Assembly: GCA_947630295.1 (NCBI GenBank)
Contig: CANRGZ010000002.1
Span: forward strand, 3,224 to 67,223
Length of the DNA: 64,000 bases
Origin: an uncultured Lachnospiraceae bacterium
GTDB lineage: Bacteria > Bacillota > Clostridia > Lachnospirales > Lachnospiraceae
Direction of reading: 5' to 3'
The notes below the pieces were generated by a model. It was not told the DNA's origin and did not search any database. It worked only from the letters and a program-made list of their open reading frames with translations. Shown in pieces: positions 2,951 to 30,807 of this stretch; position 1 is the stretch's first letter; every line of letters begins with the position of its first letter. The position numbers and the translations under genes were made by a program.

Positions 2951-4020
2951 AGTTTTTGCTTCTCCCCCTTCAAGGCCGCCAGCCCGTACTGAATCATCTG
3001 TGCCTTTTCCTGATCGCTTTTGTCAGAATCCAGTACCATGCGGATAAAGGTACCTTTCAGCGACCGGTCATAGCGATAGGCCGCTTCATCGAGGTACAGC
3101 CGGCTTTCGTCTTTGATTCGTACAAAATAAAACAACGGCTCCATTGCTTTCTGCAGAAACGCCGGATCTATGTCCGCCTCCGGCGACACTTCTCCCTGCA
3201 GGGTAAAATGCACCATATCTTCGGACGGAACCTGAGCTGCCGCTTCCTTCATCCGGTCGGTAATCTCGTAAATGCGGTCCAGCCCGCTGATATCCACCCC
3301 AATATCGTGCAGCTTCCGCTTCGCAAAAGGCATAAACTGTGAAGTCAATCCTTTTTCATCGGTTTCCAGTAAAACAAAACCTTTATGGCCGCACTCGTCA
3401 AATCCTCTGCCCTCCAGACATCCGGCATAACAGTAAACCCCGGCGTCATCCAGCGGCGCCTGCCGGTAACTGTGCAGATGTCCCAGCGCCAGATAACGGA
3501 TGTTTCTGTTTTTCAGCCGGGACAGGCAGATAAGATCTTCTCCGGCCTGTCCGGACACCTGTCCGTGCAGCACCACCAGATTGATTTTGTCCGGATCGGT
3601 TTGCAGGCTGTCGTAAATGTCCTGACAGTTTTCTCGACACAGTACTGCGCCTGTAATCCGGACGTTTTCATATGTAAAAGAAGTCCAGGTTTCCTGAAAC
3701 AGCTTCAGATTTTCCGGCAGTGCAAAATCTTCCAAAAGCCTGCGGCCTTCATCGTGATTGCCCTGCAGATACAGAAAATCGATTTCCCGCGCCGCAGCAA
3801 TCGCATCCAGCACCCGCCGGACCGTGCCGGTCTGCACCCGGGCGCTGTCAAACAGATCCCCCGCAATGATCACCACCCGTACTTCTTTCGCTTTTGCATA
3901 GTCGATCATCCGTTCAAATTGCAGCAGCAGTTCGTAATGCCGCTCCTGTGCTTTCTGCTGCGGCAGACTGCTTTCCATTTTCGCATCCAGATGGATATCG
4001 GCGCAGTGAATGATTTTCAT
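2947..4020 (-). CDS. Mre11/SbcD-like metallophosphoesterase DNA exonuclease (YhaO-like)
   Basis: Carries MKIIHCADIHLD, GDLFD, GNHD, VLHGQ and GHLH metallophosphoesterase motifs. I moved the start to ATG 4020 (RBS-like GGAAAGGAAAAG) because the longer ORF start at 4065 lies inside the tRNA-Ser terminator hairpin. Confidence 0.7.
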   Translation of the reverse strand: MKIIHCADIHLDAKMESSLPQQKAQERHYELLLQFERMIDYAKAKEVRVVIIAGDLFDSARVQTGTVRRVLDAIAAAREIDFLYLQGNHDEGRRLLEDFALPENLKLFQETWTSFTYENVRITGAVLCRENCQDIYDSLQTDPDKINLVVLHGQVSGQAGEDLICLSRLKNRNIRYLALGHLHSYRQAPLDDAGVYCYAGCLEGRGFDECGHKGFVLLETDEKGLTSQFMPFAKRKLHDIGVDISGLDRIYEITDRMKEAAAQVPSEDMVHFTLQGEVSPEADIDPAFLQKAMEPLFYFVRIKDESRLYLDEAAYRYDRSLKGTFIRMVLDSDKSDQEKAQMIQYGLAALKGEKQKL

Positions 4021-4035
4021 GGCTTTTCCTTTCCC

Positions 4036-4067
4036 GAAAAAAAGAAGATGCTTCTTTCGAAGCATCT
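4036..4067 (-). terminator. Rho-independent terminator downstream of tRNA-Ser
   Basis: 9-bp stem AGATGCTTC (4046-4054) / GAAGCATCT (4059-4067) with a 4-nt loop, followed in minus sense by a U-run (plus-strand A-run 4036-4043). Confidence 0.55.
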
Positions 4068-11142: not shown

Positions 11143-12252
11143 TTACACCTCGGGAATAAAATTCACCGGAAGAATCATGTAAATATAGGATTCATTTTCA
11201 TCCTTAATAATACAGGGATTCTTCGCATTGACCATATAAAGAGATACTTCTTCGTCGTCAATGGCCCGCAGTGCATCTTTAATAAACTTCGGATTAAAGG
11301 CAATCATCAGATCCTTGCCTTCTTTTAAAATCTCCACTTCTTCGTTCATGGTACCGGAGAAGGATTTGATTTTAATACCCACATGATCGTCTCTGATATC
11401 CATAACCAGCGGTTTTTTGTCTGATTCATTAATCAGAAGCGTCGCCCGGTCAATGGAATCATACAGTTCATTTTTATTGGCTCTGACCTTAACCTGATAA
11501 TCAAAGGAAAGCATCTGATCGATCTTAAAGAACTCGCCTTCGATCACACGGGAAACTACTTTTGTATCTTCAAACTCAAACATGATATGGTTGCTGCTGA
11601 AATAGATTTCCACATCCTTGTCCATATCGCCTTCAATGATTTTGGTCAGATCATTCAGCGTCTTTCCCGGTACAATGCATTTTGTTTTTTCATAATTTTC
11701 CTTTAAGGAAATATTCCGGATGGAAATACGGCAGGAATCCAAAGCAGTAACCTTCAGATTATTTCCATTGACTTCAAAGCATTCTCCGGTCATCATCAGA
11801 TTGCTCTCATTTTCAGCAATTGAAAAAATGGTCTGTCCTATAATTTTCTTTAAAGAATACTGGCTGATGGTAACGCTCTGATTTTTAATCACATCCGGCA
11901 GTGCGGAAAACTCCTGTATATTTTTATAACCAATCACAAACCGGGCTTTTTCACAGGTGATTTTTACCTGATTGTTTTCAATGATCTGAATGCAGACCTC
12001 ATTATCAGGAAGCTTTCGGATGATATCGGAAAACAGTTTGGCATTGACTGCAATGGATCCGTTTTCAATCACCATGCCTTCAATGACGGTTTCAATGCCG
12101 ATCTCCATATCGTTTGCGGTAATTTTAATGGTGTTTCCGTAAGCATTGATCATAAAGCATTCCAGAATCGGCATCGTGGTTTTCGAAGGAACGGCTTTTG
12201 AAGCAATAGAAACCCCCTTTAAAAGATTGGATTTTGTGCATAAAAATTTCAT
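11143..12252 (-). CDS. dnaN: DNA polymerase III beta sliding clamp
   Basis: 369-aa ORF directly downstream of dnaA. Its length and N-terminus MKFLCTKSNLLKGVSIASKAV...PILECF are typical of beta clamps. Confidence 0.95.
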   Translation of the reverse strand: MKFLCTKSNLLKGVSIASKAVPSKTTMPILECFMINAYGNTIKITANDMEIGIETVIEGMVIENGSIAVNAKLFSDIIRKLPDNEVCIQIIENNQVKITCEKARFVIGYKNIQEFSALPDVIKNQSVTISQYSLKKIIGQTIFSIAENESNLMMTGECFEVNGNNLKVTALDSCRISIRNISLKENYEKTKCIVPGKTLNDLTKIIEGDMDKDVEIYFSSNHIMFEFEDTKVVSRVIEGEFFKIDQMLSFDYQVKVRANKNELYDSIDRATLLINESDKKPLVMDIRDDHVGIKIKSFSGTMNEEVEILKEGKDLMIAFNPKFIKDALRAIDDEEVSLYMVNAKNPCIIKDENESYIYMILPVNFIPEV

Positions 12253-12577
12253 GACGTTTTCCTTTCTGTAATTGATATAAAAATAAAATAAATTATATTA
12301 ATAATCGTCGTAGTAGTAATAGGTACTGTGGAAAAGTGGAAAAGCCTCCAATCCTTGAAAATCAAAGGATTTTTTATTTCTTGAAGCAGGTGGAAAAACT
12401 GTGGGGGAATCGTTAATAAATCCTTTGTTTTCCACTGGTTTGTTTTATTTATAAAAATTTCTTTTAAAAGAAAGGCGGTAACCGGAAAAAGATATCCACG
12501 AAAAATCATGATAATCCACTGAATATCCACAGGTTTTCCACCGAAAATATACAGAAATGTGAAGAACCGGTGGATAT
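12253..12577. other. oriC part 2 (dnaA-dnaN intergenic DnaA-box cluster plus AT-rich unwinding-type segment)
   Basis: Near-consensus DnaA boxes (TTATCCACA / TGTGGATAA) include TGTGGAAAA 12327-12335 and ATATCCACA 12523-12531. Weaker copies are GGTGGAAAA about 12389, TTTTCCACT about 12428, ATATCCACG about 12492, TAATCCACT about 12512, TTTTCCACC about 12534 and GGTGGATAT 12569-12577. An AT-rich block at 12268-12310 abuts dnaN. Confidence 0.8.
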
Positions 12578-13912
12578 TTACGGGTTGATCAGTTTCTTGA
12601 TTAAATCTACTTTTTCTTTTAATTCCGCGTTTTTATCAAGGTTCTTTTTGATATTTTCTTCGCCGTACATAATGGTAGTATGATCCCGGTTTAAGAGTTT
12701 GCCGAGATCGGAAAGAGAAATATCCGTATACTGCCGGCAAAGATACATGACCACCTGTCTCGGTACGTTGATGTAGGCGTTTCGTTTGGAAGATTTCATT
12801 TCTTCCAGACTGACGTCATAAGTGCTGCAGACAATCTGAATGATGGATTCCGGTGTGATCATCTTGGGGGCGTCGGGAGAAATGATGTCTTTCAGTTCCC
12901 GTTCCGCCACTTCCATCGTCAGCTGCTGTGTGTTTTCCAGCTGGGTAAATGCAATCAGTTTGTTTAATGCGCCGTTTAATTCCCGAATATTGGATTTGAC
13001 GTTGGCGGCAATGTATTCCAGAATTTCTTTCGGAATATTGTAGCCTTTTTTTTCAATATTTTTTTCCAGAATGGCCATTCTGGTTTCATAATCCGGACTG
13101 GAAATATCCGCAATCAGTCCCATTTCAAACCGGGTGCGCAGACGCTCCTCCAGAGTTGTCAGATCTCTGGGCGGTTTATCGCTGGAAATGACAATCTGTT
13201 TTTTAAGCATATGCAGATGGTTAAAGGTGTGGAAAAATTCTTCCTGGGTTCGGTCTTTGTTGATAATAAACTGAATATCATCAATTAAGAGCACGTCAAT
13301 GTTGCGGTATTTTTCCCGAAACTGCAGTCCGTTGTTGTTGCTGTTTCGAATGGAATCGATCAGTTCATTGGTAAAGGTTTCGCTGGTGACGTATAAAACG
13401 TTTTTATCCGGTTTCGTTTTGTTAATGTAATGGGCGATGGAATGCATCAGATGGGTTTTTCCCAGTCCCACACCGGAATAGATAAAAAGCGGATTGTACA
13501 CCTCTCCGGGACTTTCCGCCACTGCCAGCGCAGCGGAATAGGCGAAGCGGTTATTGTCACTGACGACAAAGTTCTCAAAGGTGTACATGGAAGAACTGTA
13601 GCTTAAATCCATGTCGGCCGACGGACTTTTCTTTTCGTCTGCTTCCTGTATGTCTTTCTGCAGGATAAACTCGATTTCACAGCTTTTTCCGATGAATTCT
13701 CCGATGGAAACCTGCAGAGGAAGTTTATATTTTCGGTTCAGATAGTCGATGGCCATCATATTGTTATTGGTTACAATGATATAAACTTTGTCCCCTTCCA
13801 TTTTATAGGGCTTTAAAGGGCTTAACCAGCTGTCAAAGGAAACAGGGGAAATATTATGTTCTTTGCAGGTGTGCTCTAATATGAAATCCCAGTTTTCAAT
13901 AATGGTTTCCAT
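12578..13912 (-). CDS. dnaA: Chromosomal replication initiator DnaA
   Basis: Walker A GVGLGKTHLMH, Walker B LLIDDIQF and a C-terminal DNA-binding region (LLNRDHTTIMY). I set the start at ATG 13912 (METIIENW), preceded by GAAGTGAGG. The ORF-track TTG at 13939 is the alternative. Confidence 0.95.
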   Translation of the reverse strand: METIIENWDFILEHTCKEHNISPVSFDSWLSPLKPYKMEGDKVYIIVTNNNMMAIDYLNRKYKLPLQVSIGEFIGKSCEIEFILQKDIQEADEKKSPSADMDLSYSSSMYTFENFVVSDNNRFAYSAALAVAESPGEVYNPLFIYSGVGLGKTHLMHSIAHYINKTKPDKNVLYVTSETFTNELIDSIRNSNNNGLQFREKYRNIDVLLIDDIQFIINKDRTQEEFFHTFNHLHMLKKQIVISSDKPPRDLTTLEERLRTRFEMGLIADISSPDYETRMAILEKNIEKKGYNIPKEILEYIAANVKSNIRELNGALNKLIAFTQLENTQQLTMEVAERELKDIISPDAPKMITPESIIQIVCSTYDVSLEEMKSSKRNAYINVPRQVVMYLCRQYTDISLSDLGKLLNRDHTTIMYGEENIKKNLDKNAELKEKVDLIKKLINP

Positions 13913-14300
13913 TACGGACCTCACTTCTTTATGATTCAACGAAAATAACCTACTATGATTATAAAGGAAAAAGAAAAAAATAGCAACGAGTTATGAAAAT
14001 TGTTTTTACAGGAAATTTGTCGAAAGGGATCGATTTGGTTTACAATGAATTATCAATCAATTTTTTTAAATTGTTAAAAAGTGGAAAAAAATTGTTGTCG
14101 AAAAAAAACGCAAAAATGTGGAAAAAAAGGGGTTCAGGAGAATTTTATAAGAAAAAAAGCATAGTTTTCCACAGAGTTTTCCACAATTTGTGTAAAAAAT
14201 TACGTAAACCACTTTGGAAATCCACGAATGCTGATAAAAAAAGCCAATGGATGCCGGTGCGGGAAAAAGGAAAGGATACCGGAAGAAATGATATTTTTTT
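13913..14300. other. oriC part 1 (DnaA-box cluster upstream of dnaA)
   Basis: The region is very AT-rich. Boxes: TGTGGAAAA 14117-14125, TTTTCCACA 14165-14173, TTTTCCACA 14177-14185, AGTGGAAAA about 14090 and AAATCCACG about 14218. Confidence 0.75.
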
Positions 14301-14301
14301 C

Positions 14302-14330
14302 TTGACTTATAAAAACATTATAAATATAAT
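14302..14330 (+). promoter_or_regulatory. Sigma-A type promoter of rpmH-rnpA operon
   Basis: TTGACT (14302-14307), a 17-nt spacer, then TATAAT (14325-14330). Confidence 0.6.
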
Positions 14331-14395
14331 AGACATGATGCTTTTCTGTCAGAAGGAAATGACATGAAAATACAGAAAAAAGGAGGTGTGTTGCG

Positions 14396-22517: not shown

Positions 22518-24743
22518 TCAGGGCCATTCCATGACGCGTGCTTTCATACCCTCGATGTCCAGGATCCCGTAGGCAAAGCCTTTCCGGATCAGTTCGGGCG
22601 GTACATATTCATCATATTTTTCAAACAGCGGCACTTCCTTCGGATATACCAGCGCCATGGGATCGAAGGATTTTGCCGCTTCTTCTTTGACGATACGGAA
22701 AAAGTCTTCTTTGGAAACCCCCATTTTGAACTGAATAAAATAGGGTCTGGAGGCCTCCAGCGATGAAAGCTTCAGCCGCTCTGCGCAGCGCAGTTTTAAG
22801 AAACGCTCCAGTGCAAAAAAGGCATAAGTGCCCAGCCATGGAAACAGACACCACATGGTACCGCCCAAAGATACCAGCGGTTCGGTGGCGACGCCGGAAT
22901 GGACGGCGGTGCTGCGGCTCTGCATCAGTCTTGCCACGGCATTTTTCATCAGATACGGATAAATGGTATCCTCCTGCAGCACCTGCTTCATACGAAGCAG
23001 GATCTTTGTATGGATGTCCCCGGGACATTCTCCGAAATATGCCGGAACCTTTCCCTTGACCTGCTGGCAGTAAATCTGCCGCCGTTTATGATCGATTTCT
23101 TCAATGACCCAGACGTGGCCCGCCAGAGCAATCTTCTCTCCCACCGGCGGGGGCTTCACCGTGGTACCGATGGTCTGGGAACCGCAGCGGACGGAGTATT
23201 CTTCGCTTTCCACAAACACCCCGTAAAACTTGAAAGAGTTAATGACCCGCTCTCCTGCCAGTCCTACAATCAGGCCGCCTTCTTCGGTCTTCTGCAGCTG
23301 TCCGGTTTCAATCAGATGATTTAAAAGACAGCGATAATCCTCCTGAGAGATCCGATGAAAATACTGCAGCCCCAGCACCCTGGAAGCCAGTGCCGCAGGG
23401 GTCAGCTCGCCGCAGGAAGCCAGAGTGCTCATGGTCTGATGGTACAGCAGGCTGAAGGGCAGCCGGTCCAGCCGGGGCGGCTCCACCCAGCGTTCTTCCA
23501 GATACAGCTGCACCAGCGCTATGGCCTGCAGCAGCTTCCAGGGAACCGTGGTGGGCAGCATGGCCCGCATTTCCGGCGGATCTTCCCGGATGACAAACCA
23601 CATTTCCTGGGGCGCGCCTCTCCGGCCGGTACGGCCCATGCGCTGCAGGAAAGAGGAAACCATAAAGGGCGCGTCGATCTGAAAGGCCCGTTCCAGTTTT
23701 CCGATGTCGATGCCCAGTTCCAGTGTGGCGGTGGTGACCGTGGTCTGATACATGCCGTCGTCTTTCATAATCTCTTCCGCGGTTTCCCGGTAGGAAGCCG
23801 AAAGATTGCCGTGGTGAATCAGAAAACGGTCCGGTTCCTGGTTTGCTTCGCAGTATTGCCGCAGGGTGGTGGTCACGGCCTCGCATTCCTCTCTGGAATT
23901 GACAAAGACCAGACACTTTTTCCCCCGGGTGTGTTCAAAGATATACCCCAGGCCGGGATCCGCATGGGCGGGCGCCGGATCGGAAACTTCTTCCGGCATG
24001 GGCAGCGCGTTTTTCACTTCGTGCTCTTCCGCGCTCTGGGGCCCCTGTACATAAAAATGTTCCAGAGAAAGGCGCCAGGTGCTGCCCTTCGCTTCGATTT
24101 TCGGAATCGCGGTTTTTCTGCCGGTACCGGCAGAGAGAAAAGCGCCGGTACTTTCCAGATCGCCGATGGTGGCGGAAAGGCCGATTCTTCGGGGATTTAC
24201 CCCCGCCATGGCGGAAAGCCGCTCGATGAGGCAGAGGGTCTGGCCGCCGCGGTCGCCCCGCATCAGAGAGTGCACCTCGTCAATGACGATGAAACGCAGA
24301 TCATGAAACAGACGGACGATATCGGCGTGTTTGTGCATCAGCATGGCTTCCAGAGATTCCGGCGTGATCTGCAGGATCCCGGAAGGGTGCTTCAGCAGCC
24401 TGCTTTTGTGGGACTGGGACACGTCGCCGTGCCAGTGCCATACCGGAATCTGCGCTTCTTCACACAGCTCGTTCAGCCGCAGAAACTGGTCGTTGATCAG
24501 CGCCTTCAGAGGGCCGATGTAAAGGGCGCCCACGGAACGGGGCGGATCTTCGGAAAACAGTGTAAGAATGGGAAAAAACGCCGCTTCGGTTTTCCCGGAA
24601 GCGGTGGACGCCGAAAGCAGCAAATGATCCTCCGAGTTAAAAATCACATCGGCAGCCGCCACCTGTATGGCGCGCAGATTCTGCCATTGATTGCGGTATA
24701 TAAAGTCTTGTACAAAAGGCGCATAACGGTCAAACAGATGCAT
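22518..24743 (-). CDS. sngC: DEAD/DEAH (DEVH)-box SF2 helicase, Lhr-like; Shango SngC-like
   Basis: 741-aa ORF with motif I ASTASGKTEAAF, motif II VIDEVHSL and motif VI-like QRMGRTGRRG, plus a C-terminal extension of about 330 aa. RBS GGAGGAG is present. It is the last gene of the three-gene operon. Confidence 0.6.
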   Translation of the reverse strand: MHLFDRYAPFVQDFIYRNQWQNLRAIQVAAADVIFNSEDHLLLSASTASGKTEAAFFPILTLFSEDPPRSVGALYIGPLKALINDQFLRLNELCEEAQIPVWHWHGDVSQSHKSRLLKHPSGILQITPESLEAMLMHKHADIVRLFHDLRFIVIDEVHSLMRGDRGGQTLCLIERLSAMAGVNPRRIGLSATIGDLESTGAFLSAGTGRKTAIPKIEAKGSTWRLSLEHFYVQGPQSAEEHEVKNALPMPEEVSDPAPAHADPGLGYIFEHTRGKKCLVFVNSREECEAVTTTLRQYCEANQEPDRFLIHHGNLSASYRETAEEIMKDDGMYQTTVTTATLELGIDIGKLERAFQIDAPFMVSSFLQRMGRTGRRGAPQEMWFVIREDPPEMRAMLPTTVPWKLLQAIALVQLYLEERWVEPPRLDRLPFSLLYHQTMSTLASCGELTPAALASRVLGLQYFHRISQEDYRCLLNHLIETGQLQKTEEGGLIVGLAGERVINSFKFYGVFVESEEYSVRCGSQTIGTTVKPPPVGEKIALAGHVWVIEEIDHKRRQIYCQQVKGKVPAYFGECPGDIHTKILLRMKQVLQEDTIYPYLMKNAVARLMQSRSTAVHSGVATEPLVSLGGTMWCLFPWLGTYAFFALERFLKLRCAERLKLSSLEASRPYFIQFKMGVSKEDFFRIVKEEAAKSFDPMALVYPKEVPLFEKYDEYVPPELIRKGFAYGILDIEGMKARVMEWP

Positions 24744-24773
24744 GGCACTCCTCCGGACAGAAAGTGGTGCTGT

Positions 24774-26087
24774 TTATAAGGTAAATTCTGCAAATGCTTC
24801 CGGTACGGATGCGTCGCCGGAGGCAGCAGAAAAGGGAAAATCCGATGCATTCAGCAGTTCGGCAACGGAAAGGGACGGATTTTGCAGCAGGATATCCAAC
24901 AGTTCAATGAAATCCCGGATGATTTCTCTGGGGGTGATATTGCTGTCGGCGCCGACCCGGCCAAATTCGATTTTGATAAAGCAGATCAGCTCCTCCTGGG
25001 TGATGGTTCGTTCATAATCAAAAAGCACCGCGTGGATCTCAGACAGCTTTTCAATCAAAATCAGCATTTCTTCATAGGTCAGCGGCGCCAGACGAATCAC
25101 CGGCGCCAGAACGTCCTTGATGTTTTCCCTGCCGAATCTTCCTTCGCAGAGCCGGGAACGCAGGGCCTCATAGCTGTAAACCCCCCGTCTGGTATCTTCA
25201 ATGCACTGGGGCGTGCCGCACATGATCACCCCCAGATGCTTTGCCCGGCCCTGCAGGGTGTCATTGTAAATCGTAAGCAGTTTTTCGTAATTGTACTGCC
25301 TGGTAATGCTGTTGGGAATTTTGTAAATATTTACCAGTTCATCGATGAGAATCAGAAGTCCCTGATAGCCGGCGCGCTTCAAAAATGCGGCAAAGAGCTT
25401 GATGTATTCGTACCAGTCGTCGTCCCCGATCATAATATGGATTCCCAGCTCCGACCGGACTTCGGCCTTGGTGGCGTACTCTCCCCGAAACCATTTGATG
25501 ACCCGGGCTTTGCCCTCCTCGTCGTCGTCGATGACGGCGTGATAATAAAACTGAAGGAGCCGCGCGAAATCAAAACCGTGCACCATTTCATTGAGCTCCT
25601 GAATCACTTCGAATATTTTGCGTTCCACCAGCCCGGAAAATGCCGGGTCGGCAGGATCCAGTCCGCTTTCCATGGCGGTGCTGCTCTGTATACCGCTGAT
25701 CCAGCGGTCTAAGATCAGCGAAAGGGCCCCGCCTTCAGGTCTGGTTTTGGTGGAAAGGTTGCGGATCAGCTCCTTATAGGTGGCAAGGCCCTGTCCTTTG
25801 GTGCCCTGCAGGCGCCGTTCCGGTGAAAGATCCGCGTCTGCCACCACAAAATTGCGGGCCATGCAGTAGTTGCGGATCGTCTGCAGAAGAAAGCTTTTTC
25901 CGCTGCCGTATTTTCCCATAATGAAACGGAAGGTGGCGCCGCCTTCTGCGATGATATCCACGTCATGCAGCAGCGCTTCGATCTCCGTGCTTCGCCCCAC
26001 GGCGATGTACGGCAGTCCGATGCGCGGCACCACGCCGCCTTTCAGAGAATTGATCAGCACAGAGGCAATTCGTTTGGGTATTTTCAT
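24774..26087 (-). CDS. sngB: P-loop ATPase (DUF2791 / BrxC-BrxD-like); Shango SngB-like
   Basis: 437-aa ORF with Walker A MGKYGSGKSF and Walker B LLILIDELV. Its start codon overlaps the sngA stop (ATGA at 26084-26087). Confidence 0.6.
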   Translation of the reverse strand: MKIPKRIASVLINSLKGGVVPRIGLPYIAVGRSTEIEALLHDVDIIAEGGATFRFIMGKYGSGKSFLLQTIRNYCMARNFVVADADLSPERRLQGTKGQGLATYKELIRNLSTKTRPEGGALSLILDRWISGIQSSTAMESGLDPADPAFSGLVERKIFEVIQELNEMVHGFDFARLLQFYYHAVIDDDEEGKARVIKWFRGEYATKAEVRSELGIHIMIGDDDWYEYIKLFAAFLKRAGYQGLLILIDELVNIYKIPNSITRQYNYEKLLTIYNDTLQGRAKHLGVIMCGTPQCIEDTRRGVYSYEALRSRLCEGRFGRENIKDVLAPVIRLAPLTYEEMLILIEKLSEIHAVLFDYERTITQEELICFIKIEFGRVGADSNITPREIIRDFIELLDILLQNPSLSVAELLNASDFPFSAASGDASVPEAFAEFTL

Positions 26088-27520
26088 AACAGCAGTCCTT
26101 TCAGCTCGTCAATATAATCGTCGATCAGTACCGGCGCGTCTGCTTCAAACAGCACCGGCGTATCCTGAAACAGATCAAAGAGTTTTTCATTTACGGTATC
26201 TACTATAATGGAAAGCGGGATCGAGAGTTCCCGCAGCAGCGGCTGAAACGGTTCATTTTCCAGCAGACAGCGCAGGAAGCGGCGTTCATTTTCATTTAAA
26301 ACAGAGGCAGCGCCTTCTGCCGCAGAGGCATCGGAGACTGTACCGGCAGCAGCCGGTGCAGCGGGAAGCGGTTCGTCCTCTCCCATCTCCGCTTCCGTCA
26401 TCAGCCGGTCCCGGGTCTGCGCGGCGGCGGAACGAATGTCCGAAAGCCTGGAAAGGTCGATGTCGATACGGGGCGCCGACAGCCGCTTTTTTTCGGCAAG
26501 GAAAGCTTCGATTTCCGACCGGATCAGCCCACTGGTTTCTGTGGGAAGCGCCGGCTGTTCCAGAGGGTGCGAATCATGGCAGGCCTGCCGCAGCATGGCG
26601 TCGACGGATTTGAGAATCAGTCCCAGTTCCGTGTTTTTTTTGCGGATGGACGGATAGGTTTCAAAGGACCAGCGGCCGTTGCTGCAGTGATACTTTTGTG
26701 TGTCGCTGATCTTATATTCATAGGAAATATAATGTTTGTGGTCGTAAAAAATCGCAAAGCTGAACATTTTCCGGGGAAAGACCATCTGCGTGCCAAAGAG
26801 ATGCTGAAAATACGAGCATTTTTTGTGCGCATTATATTCCTCGCACAGACGCCGGTAAACATTGCAGCAGACGGCGGTTACATCCGAGGGGTTCGTCTTG
26901 TAAAATCTGGAATTGCACAGATTATAGGAAGAAAGGGCACACAGCGCGGCAAACAGCGTTTCCGTATCTGCGGGAACGCCGCGGGCCAGCGTGTTGAGCG
27001 CTTCTTCCAGAGAAGAAAGGGCGTCAAATTCCGGGATCAGGGACACCGGCAGATTGTTGTAGATGACATAATCCTTCATCCATGCATTCAGAAAGCTCTC
27101 TGCACGGGCGTCCAGGCCGCGGTAGGCTTTCCGGAACCGCTGCAGCGCGTCAAATCCTTCTTCCGGGGAGCTGACGCCGATTTGATTGAGCAGTTCATAG
27201 ATATAAACATAGACAAAAGAAAGAGACGTTTTCCGGATGTCGCCCCGGCGCAGTTTCGTCCGCCAGGAGAAATAGCCCCGAAGCTGCTCGTCATTCATGG
27301 CCTGATAGGTGGGATAATAACGTACAAAGGTTCCGTGAAACGCATAGTCGTCCTCATAATCGGCCATAAGCATCCCCTGTTCATAAAAAAGGCGTTCGGG
27401 GGAATGTACGGAGGCGGCCAGCGCTTTCATTTTCCGGTATGGTTCCGGAAGCGCCGGTTTTTCCGCGGGCGGAATATAGGAAGCCGGCCGCCGGATGGGT
27501 TCATCGTAATACAGCTTCAT
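26084..27520 (-). CDS. sngA: TerB-N / TerB-C domain protein; Shango SngA-like
   Basis: 478-aa ORF. Its N-terminal region (YPTYQAMNDEQLRGYFSWRTKLRRGD...SFVYVYIYELLNQ) fits the TerB-N signature as recalled. An Ala/Glu-rich linker follows, then a C-terminal LNENERRFLRCLL...IIVDTVNEKLFD region resembling TerB-C. RBS AGGAG lies 8 nt upstream. Confidence 0.6.
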   Translation of the reverse strand: MKLYYDEPIRRPASYIPPAEKPALPEPYRKMKALAASVHSPERLFYEQGMLMADYEDDYAFHGTFVRYYPTYQAMNDEQLRGYFSWRTKLRRGDIRKTSLSFVYVYIYELLNQIGVSSPEEGFDALQRFRKAYRGLDARAESFLNAWMKDYVIYNNLPVSLIPEFDALSSLEEALNTLARGVPADTETLFAALCALSSYNLCNSRFYKTNPSDVTAVCCNVYRRLCEEYNAHKKCSYFQHLFGTQMVFPRKMFSFAIFYDHKHYISYEYKISDTQKYHCSNGRWSFETYPSIRKKNTELGLILKSVDAMLRQACHDSHPLEQPALPTETSGLIRSEIEAFLAEKKRLSAPRIDIDLSRLSDIRSAAAQTRDRLMTEAEMGEDEPLPAAPAAAGTVSDASAAEGAASVLNENERRFLRCLLENEPFQPLLRELSIPLSIIVDTVNEKLFDLFQDTPVLFEADAPVLIDDYIDELKGLLL

Positions 27521-27592
27521 CGGAATCTCCTGTCAGTATACAATACCTGCGGCAGGCGAAAAACGCCTGCTGCGCAAAAAAACTATGTTCCC

Positions 27593-27621
27593 ATTATAGC
27601 AATGATGGATGTGAAATTCAA
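27593..27621 (-). promoter_or_regulatory. Sigma-A type promoter of the TerB-ATPase-helicase operon
   Basis: Minus strand reads TTGAAT (27616-27621), a 17-nt spacer, then TATAAT (27593-27598). It gives a 5' UTR of about 70 nt containing a GC-rich hairpin (GCAGGCG-TTTTT-CGCCTGC, about 27550-27570). Confidence 0.6.
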
Positions 27622-27638
27622 TAGACAGCCTGTAATTT

Positions 27639-27656
27639 TTCGAACATATGTGCGAA
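27639..27656. promoter_or_regulatory. 18-bp near-perfect palindrome just upstream of the -35 (possible operator)
   Basis: TTCGAACATATGTGCGAA, with 16 of 18 positions self-complementary. It lies 18 nt upstream of the -35 hexamer and 5 nt after the J-domain gene stop. Confidence 0.35.
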
Positions 27657-27660
27657 CAGA

Positions 27661-28383
27661 TCAGCAGAACCGGCAGAAACTGCAGAGCAGCTGGCCGAAG
27701 CAAAGTCCCATGCAGAGTTTGCGCATGTCCATGACTTCCATATTAAAACCTCTGCCGTTTTCCTGATAGGCGCCGGAAGACCGGGTCATCTGATTTAAAA
27801 TCTGACGGTACAGCGGATTTTGCGGATCCATGGACGCAGCCTGATTCATATACTGGGTGGCCTGAATCAGATTGCCGGTGCCGTAATTGGAGATGCCCAT
27901 TAAATAATACCAACGGGCGCCGCGGCTGGCCTCCGGTATATTGATCAGAATATTGATGGCCGAACGATAATCGCTGCTGCGGATAGACATAACTGCGCTT
28001 TTTACGGCGGGACTGTCGCCGGAAAGGATTTCAGGCATGGGAATACTGCCGGCGAAACCGAAACCAAACAGATCGTCAAAGGAGAAACCACCGTAAGGGC
28101 CGTTCGAACCGCCATAGCCGCCATAACCGGAACCGCCGCTGCCGTAAGTGCTGCCGCCACTGCTGCCATAGCCGCCGCCAAAGGATTGTGCGCGGCGGTA
28201 TTTTTCGGGGTTCATCAGCATGTCATAGGCTTCATTGATTTCATTCATTTTATCTCCGGCATCCGGGTCGTCCGGATGCAGATCCGGATGGTATAGTTTG
28301 GCCTTTTGCCGGTATGCTTTTTTAATCTCCTCTTTGCTGGCATTTCTGGAAACGCCGAGGATTTTGTAAGGATCATCGATCAT
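27661..28383 (-). CDS. J-domain (DnaJ-like) protein with Gly/Ser/Tyr-rich linker, TPR-like region and Cys-rich hydrophobic tail
   Basis: Start at ATG 28383 ([34 protein letters not shown], with the HPD motif). It has a [24 protein letters not shown] linker and C-terminal [18 protein letters not shown]. The longer ORF-track N-terminus overlaps the upstream gene. Confidence 0.8.
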
Positions 28384-29188
28384 ATTTTTCCCTTTCCCGG
28401 TTATAACGGAGCCATATACCGGAATAAAAGATATTTCGCAGAAGATGGACGTCGGAAACCAGCGGCAGCCGCTCAAAGGCTTCGGAGGCGCCGCCCAGCA
28501 GCTGCATCAGCAGCGGTTTCATGGCTGCCGGATCGGCGGACAGTGCGCGTAAGGGATTGTAGGCGCCCTTCTTTTTGTCTTTTTCGTAATCGGCCGCCGC
28601 GTCCGCCAGATAGATAAACTGTCCCAGGCCGAATCCCAGTTGGTACAGATCCGGTTCCCAGCGGTCTTTCCGGACGATAAACAGCGCCGCCATCAGCCGC
28701 CCGAAGGAGGCCGCCGCCGCATCGGCGTCAGGGATATTTTCCTTTTCAATGGCCGACAGTGTTTCCAGTTCCCTTTCAATGGCCTGTATGGCCCGGGGCT
28801 GCCGCAGACGGATCTTTTCGTAGGCGTTTTCCAGCGCCTTCACATAGAGGCGGCGATCCGCCCGGCGTTCATCTTTCCAGTCGTCCATACATTTGTGATA
28901 GACCAGCGCAACGTTGATATCTGCCGCATATTCGGTGAAACAGTTGGAATCCGCCGGGTGATGTTTCATGGGATGGACGACGCAGCGAAGGTCGGTATGA
29001 TCCTCCGGCGGTTCATACAGCGATGAAAGCAGGAGGATCAGAAAGGTCAGATCGTAGGTGAGGCTGAGTCTGGCCGCCCTGCCGCAGCGCTTCTGCAGCA
29101 TACGGCAGAGACCGCAGTAAACGGCGCGGTAGCGGAGGCGCTCTTCCTCCGTCAGATCATTGATATTTGCCTGTATATATCCGAACAT
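28373..29188 (-). CDS. Uncharacterised protein, DUF5685-like (recall), translationally coupled to the J-domain gene
   Basis: Start at ATG 29188 ([31 protein letters not shown]). Its stop overlaps the J-domain gene start by 11 nt. The family name is from memory of clostridial annotations and is unverified. Confidence 0.6.
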
Positions 29189-29289
29189 AATGGATCCTCT
29201 ATTATAATGTAGCGGCACGCGCGCTTGGGAAGCGCACCTGCCAAGTCGTCGGAAGGCATTCCAGTTATGCTTCGCATAAGCCTTCTTCC

Positions 29290-29706
29290 TCAGGTATTGC
29301 GGATGGTTTTATTGCCGCATTTGGGGCAGCTGACTTCGATCCTGCCCTTTCCTTTCGGCACGCGGATCATGGTTTTGCAGCTGCTGCATTTGAAATAGGT
29401 ATGGGTTTTGCGCTCTGCCCACATGCGCTTGCGCAGAGAGAAAAATTTTTTGCACCTGTATTTTGCACTTCGGTAGCGCTCCAGCTCCTGATTCCGTTTC
29501 GCAAGATTCTTGGAATAAATGCGAAAACAGGAATAAAAAAGCAGAAAAATCGCAATCAAATAAAAAAACCGTAATACGCGGATACGGGAAAGCAGCATCA
29601 GCGCAAGGGAAGCCAGCGCCAGAAACAGGGAAAATTCATCGTTTCCGTGCCTGCCATACATGAATTTTTGAAACCGGTAAGCCAGCCTTTGCAGAAAATT
29701 TCTCAT
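29290..29706 (-). CDS. Small membrane protein with C-terminal zinc ribbon
   Basis: 138-aa ORF with two hydrophobic segments (FSLFLALASLALMLL, FFYLIAIFLLFYSCF). The C-terminus has CSSC-x17-CPKC. Confidence 0.6.
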   Translation of the reverse strand: MRNFLQRLAYRFQKFMYGRHGNDEFSLFLALASLALMLLSRIRVLRFFYLIAIFLLFYSCFRIYSKNLAKRNQELERYRSAKYRCKKFFSLRKRMWAERKTHTYFKCSSCKTMIRVPKGKGRIEVSCPKCGNKTIRNT

Positions 29707-29829
29707 AAAGCTTCCTCCAAATCAGGGAACAGTATAAAATGATTTGTGCGTCAAAAGGGATTACGGATTGTTACGCTGCTTCGCAGCTTTTGACGCTGTG
29801 ATCATAAAATAAATATTTGAAAAAACTGT

Positions 29830-29859
29830 TAAAAATACCTGCCTGTATCATCAGGCAGG
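29830..29859 (-). terminator. Rho-independent terminator after the alpha/beta hydrolase gene
   Basis: Stem CCTGCCTG (29838-29845) / CAGGCAGG (29852-29859) with a 6-nt loop. It is followed in minus sense by TATTTTTAACAGTTTTTT. Confidence 0.6.
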
Positions 29860-29877
29860 CATGAAAAAGGACAAAAG

Positions 29878-30807
29878 TCAATCGACGAAAAGTGCGTCAG
29901 ACAGACCATCCGTCGTCTGCAGCTGGGGAAGATGCCCCGCATCAGGCAGCATGGAAACGGTAATCTGCGGATTCAGACGGCGGTAGGCGGTTGCTTTTGT
30001 CCGACTGTCCGCCTCTTTCTCTCCGAAAAGAAGGGTGAGGGGTACGGAAAGGGCCGTCAGAATCTGCTTCACCGGCAAAATACCGTAGCCGAACAGCTCC
30101 GATGCATACATCCTTCTGGCATAACGAAGGGATTTGTGGGCGCTTTCATGGTAAACCACAGTCAGTTTTTGAATTTCTTCCGTTGACAGGCCGTAGGTTT
30201 CCAGAAAACGGTTTTCAATGGCTGTCAGACTGACGCAATGATTGTAGTACAGCGTGCCGAAGACCGGAATGGAAAGCAGCAGCCGGAGCAGTTTGCCGTA
30301 AAGGGTCAGCGCATGGGTCTGTCCCTTGGGCGCTGCGGGATTCACGCAGATGATTTTGTGAATCCGTTCCGGTGCAAGCTGGGTGGAAAGCAGGGCAAAG
30401 GAACTGCTGTCTCCGCTTGTAATAATGACGGCGGGTTCACCCACGACTTCTTCCAGAAACTGGGTCAGGAATTTCACATAGAAATAACCGGAATACAATG
30501 TATCGGGCTTGCTGCTTCTGCCGCAGCCCGGCAGATCCGGAATATAAACGGTGTGTTCTTTGCTGAGCTGCTCTGCCACCCTATGCCATTCGTAGCCGCT
30601 GGAAGCGGCAGTAAGATCATGCAGCAGAACTACCGGCGTGCCGCTGCCGCGTCTTTCGTACCAGATTTTCCCGTAATTCCACAGAAAAAAATGTCCGCAT
30701 TCTCCTTTAAGACAGGACGTATCAGCCAGAAAAGCGATTGTCTTATTATAAAGGGCGGTCAGGCAAACCGAAGAAAAAAATATTTTAAAGAATTTTTTAA
30801 AATGCAT
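29878..30807 (-). CDS. Alpha/beta-fold hydrolase family protein
   Basis: 309-aa ORF with VVLLHDLTAASSGYEW (oxyanion region), a nucleophile-elbow-like ITSGDSSSF and a C-terminal DAGHLPQ His region. Confidence 0.55.
   Translation of the reverse strand: MHFKKFFKIFFSSVCLTALYNKTIAFLADTSCLKGECGHFFLWNYGKIWYERRGSGTPVVLLHDLTAASSGYEWHRVAEQLSKEHTVYIPDLPGCGRSSKPDTLYSGYFYVKFLTQFLEEVVGEPAVIITSGDSSSFALLSTQLAPERIHKIICVNPAAPKGQTHALTLYGKLLRLLLSIPVFGTLYYNHCVSLTAIENRFLETYGLSTEEIQKLTVVYHESAHKSLRYARRMYASELFGYGILPVKQILTALSVPLTLLFGEKEADSRTKATAYRRLNPQITVSMLPDAGHLPQLQTTDGLSDALFVD

What the first reader, a model, noticed from the sequence alone, without database searches (positions are those of the whole stretch)
22518..27621. 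TerB - P-loop ATPase - DEVH helicase operon matching the Shango anti-phage architecture, next to the replication origin
Seen in sequence:
- Three co-directional genes lie behind one near-consensus promoter (TTGAAT-17-TATAAT).
- Gene 1 and gene 2 overlap by ATGA, and a 30-nt gap with GGAGGAG precedes gene 3.
- Gene 1 has a TerB-N-like N-terminus (YFSWRTKLRRGD...YVYIYELLNQ) and a TerB-C-like C-terminus.
- Gene 2 has Walker A GKYGSGKSF and Walker B LLILIDE.
- Gene 3 is an SF2 helicase (GKTEAAF, DEVH, QRMGRTGRRG) with a long uncharacterised C-terminal region.
Established knowledge:
- A TerB-domain protein plus an ATPase plus a helicase is the composition of the Shango defence system (SngA/B/C, Millman et al. 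2022).
- The same gene trio was earlier noted in comparative-genomic work on Ter-associated systems.
- The mechanism and trigger of Shango are still unknown.
Inference: this is a defence operon, here in a Clostridia host and only about 8-13 kb from oriC. That placement would give it high gene dosage during fast growth.
Basis: partly seen in the sequence, partly recalled or inferred. Interest (0 to 1): 0.75.

Follow-up and report, generated by a model that had tools for sequence, protein, structure and literature searches.

The report
Shango anti-phage operon near oriC
This is a complete, intact copy of the already-described three-gene Shango anti-phage defence system in an uncultured rabbit-gut Lachnospiraceae bacterium; the only unusual point is that it sits alone among housekeeping genes close to the chromosome origin and has been inherited vertically there.

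Summary
Three co-directional minus-strand genes lie at 27520-26084, 26087-24774 and 24743-22518. They sit behind a TTGAAT-17-TATAAT promoter, with an ATGA overlap and a 30-nt gap containing GGAGGAG.

The proteins match the PADLOC SngA, SngB and SngC profiles at 1.9e-71, 2e-186 and 9.4e-275. Pfam gives TerB_N + TerB_C, BrxC_BrxD (PF10923) and DEAD + Helicase_C. All ATPase and helicase motifs are intact.

What I add:
- The trio occupies the same rsmG-parA slot in all four genus-level genomes available. Its dS equals that of the flanks and dN/dS is 0.03-0.14.
- It is absent from that slot in five other Clostridia.
- Copies with 74-79 % identical SngB/SngC lie beside recombinases in other families, and homologues sit on 696 plasmids.
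- SngA evolves much faster than SngB/SngC.
- The "uncharacterised" SngC C-terminus is Lhr/BrxHI-like.
- SngA has no TerB (PF05099) domain proper, and its fold is unmatched apart from a C-terminal wHTH-like module.
- No other defence genes flank it, and it is transcribed head-on to replication.

This is a new member of a known kind. The mechanism of Shango remains unknown.

The parts
27639..27656 (-). 18-bp near-palindrome TTCGCACATATGTTCGAA, 5 nt after the stop of the upstream DnaJ-domain gene and just upstream of the -35. Candidate operator; inferred, not shown.
   Evidence: Read. It is conserved in L001 and L002 and largely in L016 (TTCGTACAAATGTTCGAA), although the rest of the intergenic region has diverged.
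27593..27621 (-). Sigma-70-type promoter TTGAAT-17-TATAAT with a TG extension
   Evidence: 10/12 matches. Both hexamers are conserved in all four syntenic loci.
27545..27575 (-). 5'-UTR hairpin GCAGCAGGCG-UUUUU-CGCCUGCCGC between the promoter and the RBS. Doubtful significance.
   Evidence: z = -1.55; 12/200 shuffles fold as well. Present in the window, L001 and L002 but absent in L016.
26084..27520 (-). sngA, 478 aa. TerB_N (res 37-199), a conserved middle alpha/beta region, a disordered variable linker (res 375-404), and TerB_C (res 338-474) whose last ~70 aa are wHTH-like. RBS AGGAG at 27531-27527.
   Evidence: PADLOC SngA 1.9e-71. Pfam TerB_N 3.8e-31 and TerB_C 2.1e-19. AF2 pLDDT 86.8. Only local wHTH fold matches. 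dN/dS 0.11-0.14.
24774..26087 (-). sngB, 437 aa. BrxD-family (PF10923) AAA+ ATPase with Walker A GKYGSGKS (res 58-65) and Walker B LLILIDE (res 244-250). Its start overlaps the sngA stop (ATGA).
   Evidence: PADLOC SngB 2e-186 against BrxD 3.6e-48. Pfam BrxC_BrxD 7e-168.. dN/dS 0.04-0.07.
24748..24754 (-). GGAGGAG ribosome-binding site for sngC, inside the 30-nt sngB-sngC gap
22518..24743 (-). sngC, 741 aa. Lhr/BrxHI-like SF2 helicase: RecA1 (res 25-194; motif I GKT 50-52, motif II DEVH 155-158), RecA2 (res 268-376; motif VI QRMGRTGRRG), Lhr-type winged helix (about res 417-480), and a BrxHI-like C-terminal module (res 481-741).
   Evidence: PADLOC SngC 9.4e-275 and BrxHI 1.2e-122, both end to end. 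Pfam DEAD and Helicase_C. WH_Lhr E = 0.0017. Profile against PDB: Lhr 5v9x at 4e-63, aligned through the WH domain. Motif residues are invariant in 47 diverse homologues. dN/dS 0.03-0.04.

Best explanation
This is a complete, functional Shango (sngA-sngB-sngC) anti-phage defence operon in the chromosome of an uncultured Lachnospiraceae bacterium. It is transcribed as one unit from its own conserved sigma-70-type promoter.

Shown here:
- Family membership of all three proteins, with intact catalytic motifs.
- Operon structure.
- Purifying selection on all three genes.
- Vertical inheritance at this origin-proximal site within the genus.
- Mobility of the same trio elsewhere, beside recombinases and on plasmids.

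Inferred mechanism (not shown, and unknown for any Shango system):
- SngB is an ORC/Cdc6-type AAA+ ATPase of the BrxD family. It would oligomerise and load or activate SngC on invading or replicating phage DNA.
- SngC is an Lhr/BrxHI-like SF2 DNA helicase/translocase carrying a winged helix and a C-terminal DNA-binding module.
- SngA is the fast-evolving TerB_N/TerB_C protein with a C-terminal wHTH-like module. It would act as the sensor or specificity adaptor that couples a phage cue to the motor pair.
- No nuclease or other toxic effector domain is recognisable in any of the three proteins. I therefore favour ATP-driven interference with phage DNA replication or processing over direct cleavage.
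For: HMM membership: PADLOC SngA 1.9e-71, SngB 2e-186 and SngC 9.4e-275, each nearly full length and each far better than the BREX paralogue profiles. Pfam gives TerB_N + TerB_C, PF10923, and DEAD + Helicase_C.

Operon anatomy. The promoter is conserved in four genomes.

Motifs: present and invariant across 47 homologues of 35-66 % identity.

Selection: dN/dS is 0.03-0.04 for SngC, 0.04-0.07 for SngB and 0.11-0.14 for SngA. Against L001, dS of the sng genes (0.16-0.18) matches that of yidC, mnmG, rsmG and 2HADH (0.18-0.19).

Mobility:
- The trio is absent between rsmG and parA in L004-L007 and L009.
- SngB/SngC copies of 74-79 % identity lie next to a serine recombinase and a tyrosine integrase (L017) or an integrase (L013, L014). 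Housekeeping RsmG, by contrast, is at most 56 % identical outside the genus.
- The same gene order occurs on a C. estertheticum megaplasmid beside a relaxase fragment and an IS110 element, and on Klebsiella IncF plasmids. In all, 696 plasmid records carry a homologue.

Sensor inference: across the same comparisons SngA is 60 % (L016) and 42-44 % (other families) identical, against 82-83 % and 74-79 % for SngB/SngC. Variation is concentrated in residues 321-440.

Loader/helicase inference:
- SngC matches the BrxHI profile end to end, and SngB matches the BrxD profile.
- The best solved relative of SngC is mycobacterial Lhr, aligned through its WH domain.
- PMC12839542 describes BrxD as an ORC/Cdc6 AAA+ ATPase tightly paired with BrxHI and proposes it loads the helicase.

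Experimental basis for the family: Shango protects E. coli and P. aeruginosa against phages.
Against: - No phenotype is available for this locus or for any Gram-positive Shango.
- It is not in a defence island. No PADLOC hit occurs in 10 flanking proteins, and none among 10 other large ORFs of the window apart from weak SMC-like LmuB matches in an SbcC-like gene.
- It is fixed in every genus-level genome found. SngB/SngC are as constrained as DnaA, YidC and MnmG, which is atypical of fast-turnover defence genes.
- The mechanism is entirely inferred.
- The SngC structural model was poor (pLDDT 54.5), so its C-terminal architecture rests on profile matches and on a paper about BrxHI.
- The wHTH match for SngA is local and statistically weak (Foldseek E about 0.6-5, probability 0.4-0.98 over ~70 residues).
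Confidence: 0.85

Rival explanations
1. A domesticated Shango. In this Lachnospiraceae genus the trio has become a core chromosome-maintenance module that acts at or near the origin, for example in DNA repair or replication-conflict resolution by an Lhr-like helicase with an ORC/Cdc6-like loader. On this reading it is no longer an anti-phage system.
For: - The trio is present at the identical site in 4/4 genus-level genomes, embedded between rsmG and parAB about 8-13 kb from oriC.
- Its dS equals that of the flanks, and dN/dS of SngB/SngC (0.03-0.07) is as low as for yidC and mnmG.
- There are no neighbouring defence or mobile-element genes.
- Lhr and MrfA/YprA, the closest solved relatives of SngC, are DNA-repair helicases.
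Against: - The best HMM matches are the defence-derived Sng profiles, not repair helicases. NCBIfam Lhr-type models score far below their cut-offs (199 against 850 bits).
- The trio is absent from the same slot in five other Clostridia.
- Near-identical SngB/SngC copies travel with recombinases and plasmids.
- SngA evolves rapidly, as expected for a component in an arms race.
- Only four genomes of the clade are available, so 'fixed' is weakly sampled.
Confidence: 0.07
2. A remnant of a type 2 BREX (Pgl) system. Only the BrxD-BrxHI dyad would survive, here joined to an unrelated TerB_N protein.
For: SngB matches BrxD (PADLOC 3.6e-48; NCBIfam NF033438 7.8e-48). SngC matches BrxHI end to end (1.2e-122).
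Against: - The Sng profiles score 2-4 times higher in bits. NCBIfam BrxD scores 163.6 against a cut-off of 350.
- No PglZ, PglX, BrxC or PglW match occurs in any flanking or large ORF of the 64-kb window.
- The TerB_N-ATPase-helicase order recurs intact in unrelated genomes and plasmids.
Confidence: 0.02
3. A Ter-type (tellurite/stress resistance) module rather than phage defence.
For: The Pfam names of the SngA domains (TerB_N, TerB_C) derive from Ter-associated proteins.
Against: - No TerB (PF05099) domain is detected in SngA, even at E <= 10 for the middle region.
- None of the flanking ORFs scanned with Pfam is a Ter protein; the window as a whole was not scanned for ter genes.
- The partners are DNA-acting ATPases.
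Confidence: 0.01

Closest known systems
Shango defence system (SngA/SngB/SngC; Millman et al. 2022, E. coli; Johnson et al. 2023, P. aeruginosa PA14 cDHS1)
   Same: - Three genes in the order TerB_N/TerB_C protein, PF10923 ATPase, DEAD/DEAH helicase.
- All three PADLOC Sng profiles matched nearly end to end.
- All catalytic motifs intact.
   Different: - The host is a Gram-positive anaerobe (Lachnospiraceae MAG).
- The system sits alone between rsmG and parAB near oriC rather than in a defence hotspot or island.
- It is inherited vertically in the genus.
- SngA lacks about 25 N-terminal residues present in most Clostridial homologues. It is much shorter than the 769-aa enterobacterial plasmid version.
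- There is no experimental phenotype.
BrxD-BrxHI dyad of type 2 BREX (Pgl)
   Same: SngB is homologous to BrxD, an ORC/Cdc6-type AAA+ ATPase. SngC is homologous to BrxHI, an SF2 helicase with wHTH, beta-barrel and an Lhr-like CTD. In both systems the two genes are tightly linked in the order ATPase then helicase.
   Different: - No PglZ, PglX, BrxC or PglW, so no methylation-based self/non-self component.
- The dyad is partnered with a TerB_N/TerB_C protein instead.
- The BREX profiles score much lower than the Sng profiles.
Lhr (large helicase-related) and MrfA/YprA DNA-repair helicases (PDB 5v9x, 7lhl, 6znp)
   Same: They are the best solved relatives of SngC. The profile match to Lhr is 4e-63 and covers RecA1, RecA2 and the winged helix. 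There is a weak Pfam WH_Lhr hit.
   Different: - No sequence-level match beyond the WH domain.
- NCBIfam Lhr-type and ligase-associated helicase models score far below their cut-offs.
- SngC is encoded with an AAA+ ATPase and a TerB_N protein, which Lhr is not.
Other TerB-associated defence systems (Bunzi BnzA; Dionysus DinB)
   Same: All are defence systems named for a TerB-related component whose role is unknown. That component has been proposed to act in sensing or membrane surveillance.
   Different: - Those proteins are reported to carry a TerB or TerB-like domain, and in Bunzi and Dionysus there are also membrane or pore-forming parts.
- SngA here has TerB_N + TerB_C only. I did not run a transmembrane prediction, but the confident AF2 model is a compact helical and alpha/beta structure.
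- Its partners act on DNA.

Membership tests
Shango | SngA-family protein with TerB_N and TerB_C domains | tested here: met
   PADLOC SngA 1.9e-71, residues 26-476 on model positions 69-526 of 528. Pfam TerB_N 108.9 bits (cut-off 25) and TerB_C 70.6 bits (cut-off 26.3).
Shango | SngB-family P-loop ATPase (PF10923, BrxC/BrxD-like) with intact Walker A and B | tested here: met
   PADLOC SngB 2e-186 (618 bits) against BrxD 163 bits. Pfam PF10923 7e-168. GKYGSGKS at residues 58-65 and LLILIDE at 244-250.
Shango | SngC-family SF2 DEAD/DEAH helicase with intact motifs I, II and VI | tested here: met
   PADLOC SngC 9.4e-275, residues 3-735 on model positions 5-715 of 720. The GKT, DEVH and QRMGRTGR residues are invariant in 47 diverse homologues.
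Shango | All three genes adjacent, co-directional, in the order A-B-C, in one operon | tested here: met
   a 4-nt overlap and a 30-nt gap behind a single promoter. The same order occurs in L013-L019.
Shango | Confers protection against phage infection | not testable with these tools
   Shown only for the E. coli and P. aeruginosa PA14 systems.
BREX type 2 (Pgl) | Core genes PglZ, PglX, BrxC and PglW next to BrxD/BrxHI | tested here: not met
   No such PADLOC matches among 10 flanking proteins or 10 further large ORFs of the window. NCBIfam BrxD scores 163.6 against a cut-off of 350.
Ter (tellurite resistance) stress-response cluster | TerB domain proper (PF05099) and ter operon partners | tested here: not met
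   Only TerB_N and TerB_C were found in SngA. There is no Pfam hit at E <= 10 in residues 200-340. The neighbours are rsmG, a 2-hydroxyacid dehydrogenase, a DnaJ-domain protein, DUF5685 and ParAB.
Lhr helicase | Lhr-core architecture: RecA1-RecA2, winged helix, domain 4 / CTD | tested here: inconclusive
   The helicase core and WH domain are matched (5v9x 4e-63 through Lhr residue 508; WH_Lhr E = 0.0017, below the gathering score). The region after the WH has no sequence match. The AF2 model is too poor to test it (pLDDT 54.5). NCBIfam Lhr-type models are far below their cut-offs.

The most novel reading that the evidence does not exclude
In this Lachnospiraceae genus Shango has been captured as a fixed, origin-proximal, head-on-oriented core locus. 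Its ORC/Cdc6-like ATPase and Lhr-like helicase would have acquired, or always had, a role tied to replication at or near oriC. One possibility is sensing aberrant replication initiation or replication intermediates. In that case its position between rsmG and parAB would be functional rather than accidental.
Probability: 0.06. Interest if true: 0.6.

Novelty: new member of a known kind. Interest (0 to 1): 0.27.

Why it matters
It extends an experimentally validated but mechanistically unsolved defence system (Shango) to gut Clostridia, and it gives three usable leads.

1. SngB/SngC behave as a slowly evolving motor pair homologous to the BrxD/BrxHI dyad of type 2 BREX. SngA is the rapidly diverging partner. 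This suggests SngA is the sensor or specificity subunit and shows where to look for phage escape mutations.
2. SngA has a confidently predicted fold with no solved or viral structural relative except a C-terminal wHTH-like module. That makes it a reasonable structural-biology target.
3. A defence operon that is fixed and vertically inherited next to oriC, outside any island, is a mild counter-example to the usual picture of defence islands with high turnover.

None of this changes what Shango is understood to be.

Tried and rejected
- AlphaFold2 of SngC, using 25 homologues of 76-98 % identity. The result was pLDDT 54.5 and pTM 0.35, too poor for a fold search, so I ran none. The database search lists only the best 120 hits, all close relatives, which made the alignment too shallow.
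- Exact-sequence look-up of SngC found no record.
- The metagenome (JGI) scan with the adjacent 2-hydroxyacid dehydrogenase returned only a 40 % relative. This was no help for presence/absence within the genus.
- Homologues of that dehydrogenase at 58-62 % identity lie in unrelated contexts, so they do not inform on the locus either.
- Sequence and profile searches of SngA and SngB against the PDB found nothing significant.
- Foldseek of the SngA model against the PDB and BFVD gave no global match.
- The 5'-UTR hairpin as a regulatory RNA: z = -1.55 and not conserved in L016, so not pursued.
- Anantharaman et al. 2012 (the earlier comparative-genomics note on the trio) is not held in the library.
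- Three dN/dS values (dnaA and rsmG against L002, DnaJdom against L016) are alignment or frame artefacts of my script. I ignored them.
- BREX-remnant and Ter-system readings were rejected (see the rival explanations).

Full report
**1. Observation**

The three ORFs exist on the minus strand exactly as described: 26084..27520 (478 aa), 24774..26087 (437 aa) and 22518..24743 (741 aa).

Upstream lies a TTGAAT-17-TATAAT promoter with a TG extension at 27621..27593. Gene 1 and gene 2 overlap by ATGA. Gene 2 and gene 3 are separated by exactly 30 nt, containing GGAGGAG at 24754..24748.

The origin claim is also right.
- dnaA and dnaN lie at 12578..13939(-) and 11143..12252(-). yidC, jag, mnmE, mnmG and rsmG run away from them on the plus strand.
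- The cumulative GC skew has its minimum at 11-13 kb.
- DnaA-box-like sites cluster at 12235-12531 and 14117-14185. The window has 25 sites against 11.7 +/- 3.5 expected.
- The operon therefore lies about 8.3-13.4 kb from oriC.

**2. What it is**

Profile searches are unambiguous.
- PADLOC: SngA 1.9e-71, SngB 2e-186 and SngC 9.4e-275, each aligned almost end to end.
- Pfam: TerB_N (3.8e-31) plus TerB_C (2.1e-19) in gene 1; PF10923 BrxC_BrxD (7e-168) in gene 2; DEAD plus Helicase_C in gene 3.
- The paralogous BREX profiles hit as well, but at much lower scores (BrxD 163 bits against SngB 618; BrxHI 409 against SngC 912).
- NCBIfam's BrxD and Lhr-type models fall far below their curated cut-offs.
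- No PglZ, PglX, BrxC or PglW, nor any other convincing defence protein, was found in 10 flanking proteins or 10 further large ORFs of the window. An SbcC-like ORF gave only weak SMC-like LmuB matches.

This is a stand-alone Shango operon. It is neither a BREX fragment nor part of a defence island.

**3. Literature status**

Shango was reported by Millman et al. 2022 as a TerB-containing system. Johnson et al. 2023 reported it independently from P. aeruginosa PA14 cDHS1, where the TerB-like/ATPase/helicase trio gave 10-100-fold EOP reductions and strong protection in liquid culture.

Reviews and preprints up to 2025-2026 still say the role of TerB-type components is unclear. I found no mechanistic Shango paper.

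A helicase phylogeny groups SngC with BrxHI, DruE and DpdJ. A 2026 NAR paper describes BrxHI as an SF2 helicase with a wHTH, a HAS-type beta-barrel and an Lhr-like C-terminal domain. It describes BrxD as an ORC/Cdc6-type AAA+ ATPase tightly paired with BrxHI and possibly acting as its loader.

**4. Host and locus history**

The closest genomes are uncultured Lachnospiraceae MAGs from rabbit gut: L001 with RsmG 98 % identical and L002 with 91 %. A more divergent metagenomic contig is L016, with SngC 83 % identical.

All four genomes share the order dnaA / rpmH-rnpA-yidC-jag-mnmE-mnmG-rsmG / 2-hydroxyacid dehydrogenase / sngC-sngB-sngA (reverse) / DnaJ-domain / DUF5685 / Zn-ribbon / alpha-beta hydrolase / small ORF / parA-parB.

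Within this clade:
- Synonymous divergence of the sng genes equals that of the flanks. Against L001, dS is 0.16-0.18 for the sng genes and 0.18-0.19 for yidC, mnmG, rsmG and 2HADH.
- dN/dS is 0.03-0.04 for SngC, 0.04-0.07 for SngB and 0.11-0.14 for SngA.
- The operon is therefore intact, expressed-looking, under purifying selection, and inherited vertically with its neighbours.

Outside the clade:
- Five other Clostridia with the same backbone go from rsmG to parA within 0.14-3.8 kb and have no Shango. In the window that interval is 10.3 kb.
- SngB/SngC copies of 74-79 % identity lie in unrelated contexts. Sources name some of these SngC homologues as Oscillospiraceae or other Clostridia MAGs. 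One copy is flanked by a serine recombinase and a tyrosine integrase (L017). Others sit next to an agr-like locus with an integrase nearby (L013-L015).
- RsmG, by contrast, is at most 56 % identical outside the genus. This contrast argues for horizontal transfer of the system among gut Clostridia.
- The same gene order occurs on a Clostridium estertheticum megaplasmid beside a relaxase fragment and an IS110 element, and on Klebsiella IncF plasmids. SngB homologues occur on 696 plasmid records, mostly conjugative, and in none of 50,697 phage records.

**5. Protein anatomy**

*SngA.* A 50-sequence alignment at 39-46 % identity for most homologues shows a strongly conserved TerB_N core, a conserved middle region, a variable low-complexity linker and a conserved TerB_C. 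This gave a confident AF2 model with pLDDT 86.8.

Foldseek found no global match in the PDB or BFVD. Only the last ~70 residues matched, locally, winged-HTH DNA-binding domains (LysR, ArsR and MotA types) and a viral 'TerB-C' fragment. These local hits are statistically weak, so the wHTH assignment is a lead, not a result.

No TerB (PF05099) domain proper is detectable. SngA is also the fastest-evolving protein of the trio. It is 60 % identical to L016 and 42-44 % to the copies in other families, against 82-83 % and 74-79 % for SngB/SngC. Its least conserved stretch is residues 321-440.

*SngC.* My AF2 model was poor (pLDDT 54.5), so I did not use it. A profile of 47 diverse homologues matches mycobacterial Lhr (5v9x) at 4e-63 through the winged-helix domain. 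Pfam WH_Lhr gives a weak hit at residues ~417-480.

The C-terminal 347 residues define a module found in 1,433 cluster representatives. In every full-length hit it lies at the end of a helicase of about 700-800 aa.

SngC also aligns end to end with the BrxHI profile. The 'long uncharacterised C-terminal region' is therefore best read as the BrxHI/Lhr-type WH + barrel + CTD DNA-binding apparatus described.

*SngB.* It has no solved relative by sequence. It is a full-length PF10923/BrxD-type AAA+ ATPase with intact Walker A and B motifs.

**6. Mechanism (inferred)**

No nuclease, protease, NADase or membrane effector domain is recognisable in any of the three proteins. The best-supported model has three parts.
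- SngB is an ORC/Cdc6-like loader or activator.
- SngC is an Lhr/BrxHI-like DNA translocase.
- SngA is the variable sensor or adaptor.

Together they would interfere with phage DNA replication or processing. The family assignments are shown. The division of labour is inference, drawn from evolutionary rates and from homology to the BrxD-BrxHI dyad.

**7. Position near oriC**

The placement is real and conserved in the genus, but its meaning is untested.

Two facts temper the gene-dosage idea. First, the operon belongs to an 8.3-kb block (22518-30807) encoded entirely on the lagging strand, head-on to replication, where the GC skew flattens to about 0. Second, the whole rsmG-parA insert, not just Shango, is specific to this clade.

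The fixed, island-free, housekeeping-like pattern leaves a small probability that the system has been domesticated.

**8. Verdict**

This is a new member of a known kind. The interest is modest: the identification is what DefenseFinder or PADLOC would report automatically. The added points (SngA as the variable partner, vertical fixation next to oriC, the unmatched SngA fold) are leads, not discoveries.

Noticed in passing
window 27639-27656 (-): An 18-bp near-palindrome, TTCGCACATATGTTCGAA, lies immediately upstream of the Shango -35 hexamer. It is conserved in L001 and L002 and largely in the divergent L016, while the surrounding intergenic DNA has diverged. It is a candidate operator for an unknown regulator.
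   Followed up: partly
window 22517/22518: The stop codons of the convergent 2-hydroxyacid dehydrogenase (+) and sngC (-) abut with no intergenic base, and no terminator-like site was found between them. Transcripts from the two genes should therefore overlap as antisense. L001 appears to have the same zero gap, while L016 has an 18-nt gap.
   Followed up: partly
window 22518-30807: Seven consecutive genes (sngC, sngB, sngA, DnaJ-domain, DUF5685, Zn-ribbon, alpha/beta hydrolase) are all on the lagging strand close to oriC. GC skew flattens to about 0 across this block, against +0.1 to +0.2 on either side. The whole rsmG-parA insert (10.3 kb) is specific to this genus-level clade.
   Followed up: partly
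window 29204-29293 (-): An Rfam GA-cis RNA match (39.5 bits, gathering score 34.7, E = 7.7e-5). It spans the first codons of the DUF5685 gene and the gap up to the Zn-ribbon ORF.
   Followed up: no
window 27661-29218 (-): A DnaJ-domain protein and a DUF5685 protein (Pfam 7e-90) form a conserved pair directly upstream of Shango in all four syntenic genomes. Their function is unknown and they have no PADLOC hit.
   Followed up: partly
window 932-4065 (-): An SbcD-like metallophosphoesterase (2947-4065) and an SbcC/SMC-like ATPase (932-2950) form a pair downstream of gyrA. The ATPase has weak PADLOC LmuB (8.6e-16) and mad3 matches, probably generic SMC/ABC-ATPase similarity.
   Followed up: partly
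L013 7179-8688 (GCA_047014825.1): In this Clostridia MAG the sngA homologue is split into two ORFs (TerB_N, 318 aa, and TerB_C, 194 aa). Identical sngC copies on the Logan contigs L014 and L015 have an intact 502-aa sngA. This is either a frameshift pseudogene or an assembly error.
   Followed up: no
L019 4652-10473 (K. pneumoniae plasmid pC315_1, CP067762.1): Enterobacterial conjugative plasmids carry a Shango-type trio with a much longer SngA (769 aa). SngB homologues are on 449 Klebsiella and 144 Salmonella plasmid records. In this example the trio ends 1.4 kb from the IncFII repA replication gene. This second 'next to a replication origin' placement may be coincidence.
   Followed up: no
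window 13993-14367 (+): A 124-aa ORF with no Pfam hit overlaps the DnaA-box cluster upstream of dnaA (14117-14185). It is most likely a spurious ORF inside oriC.
   Followed up: no
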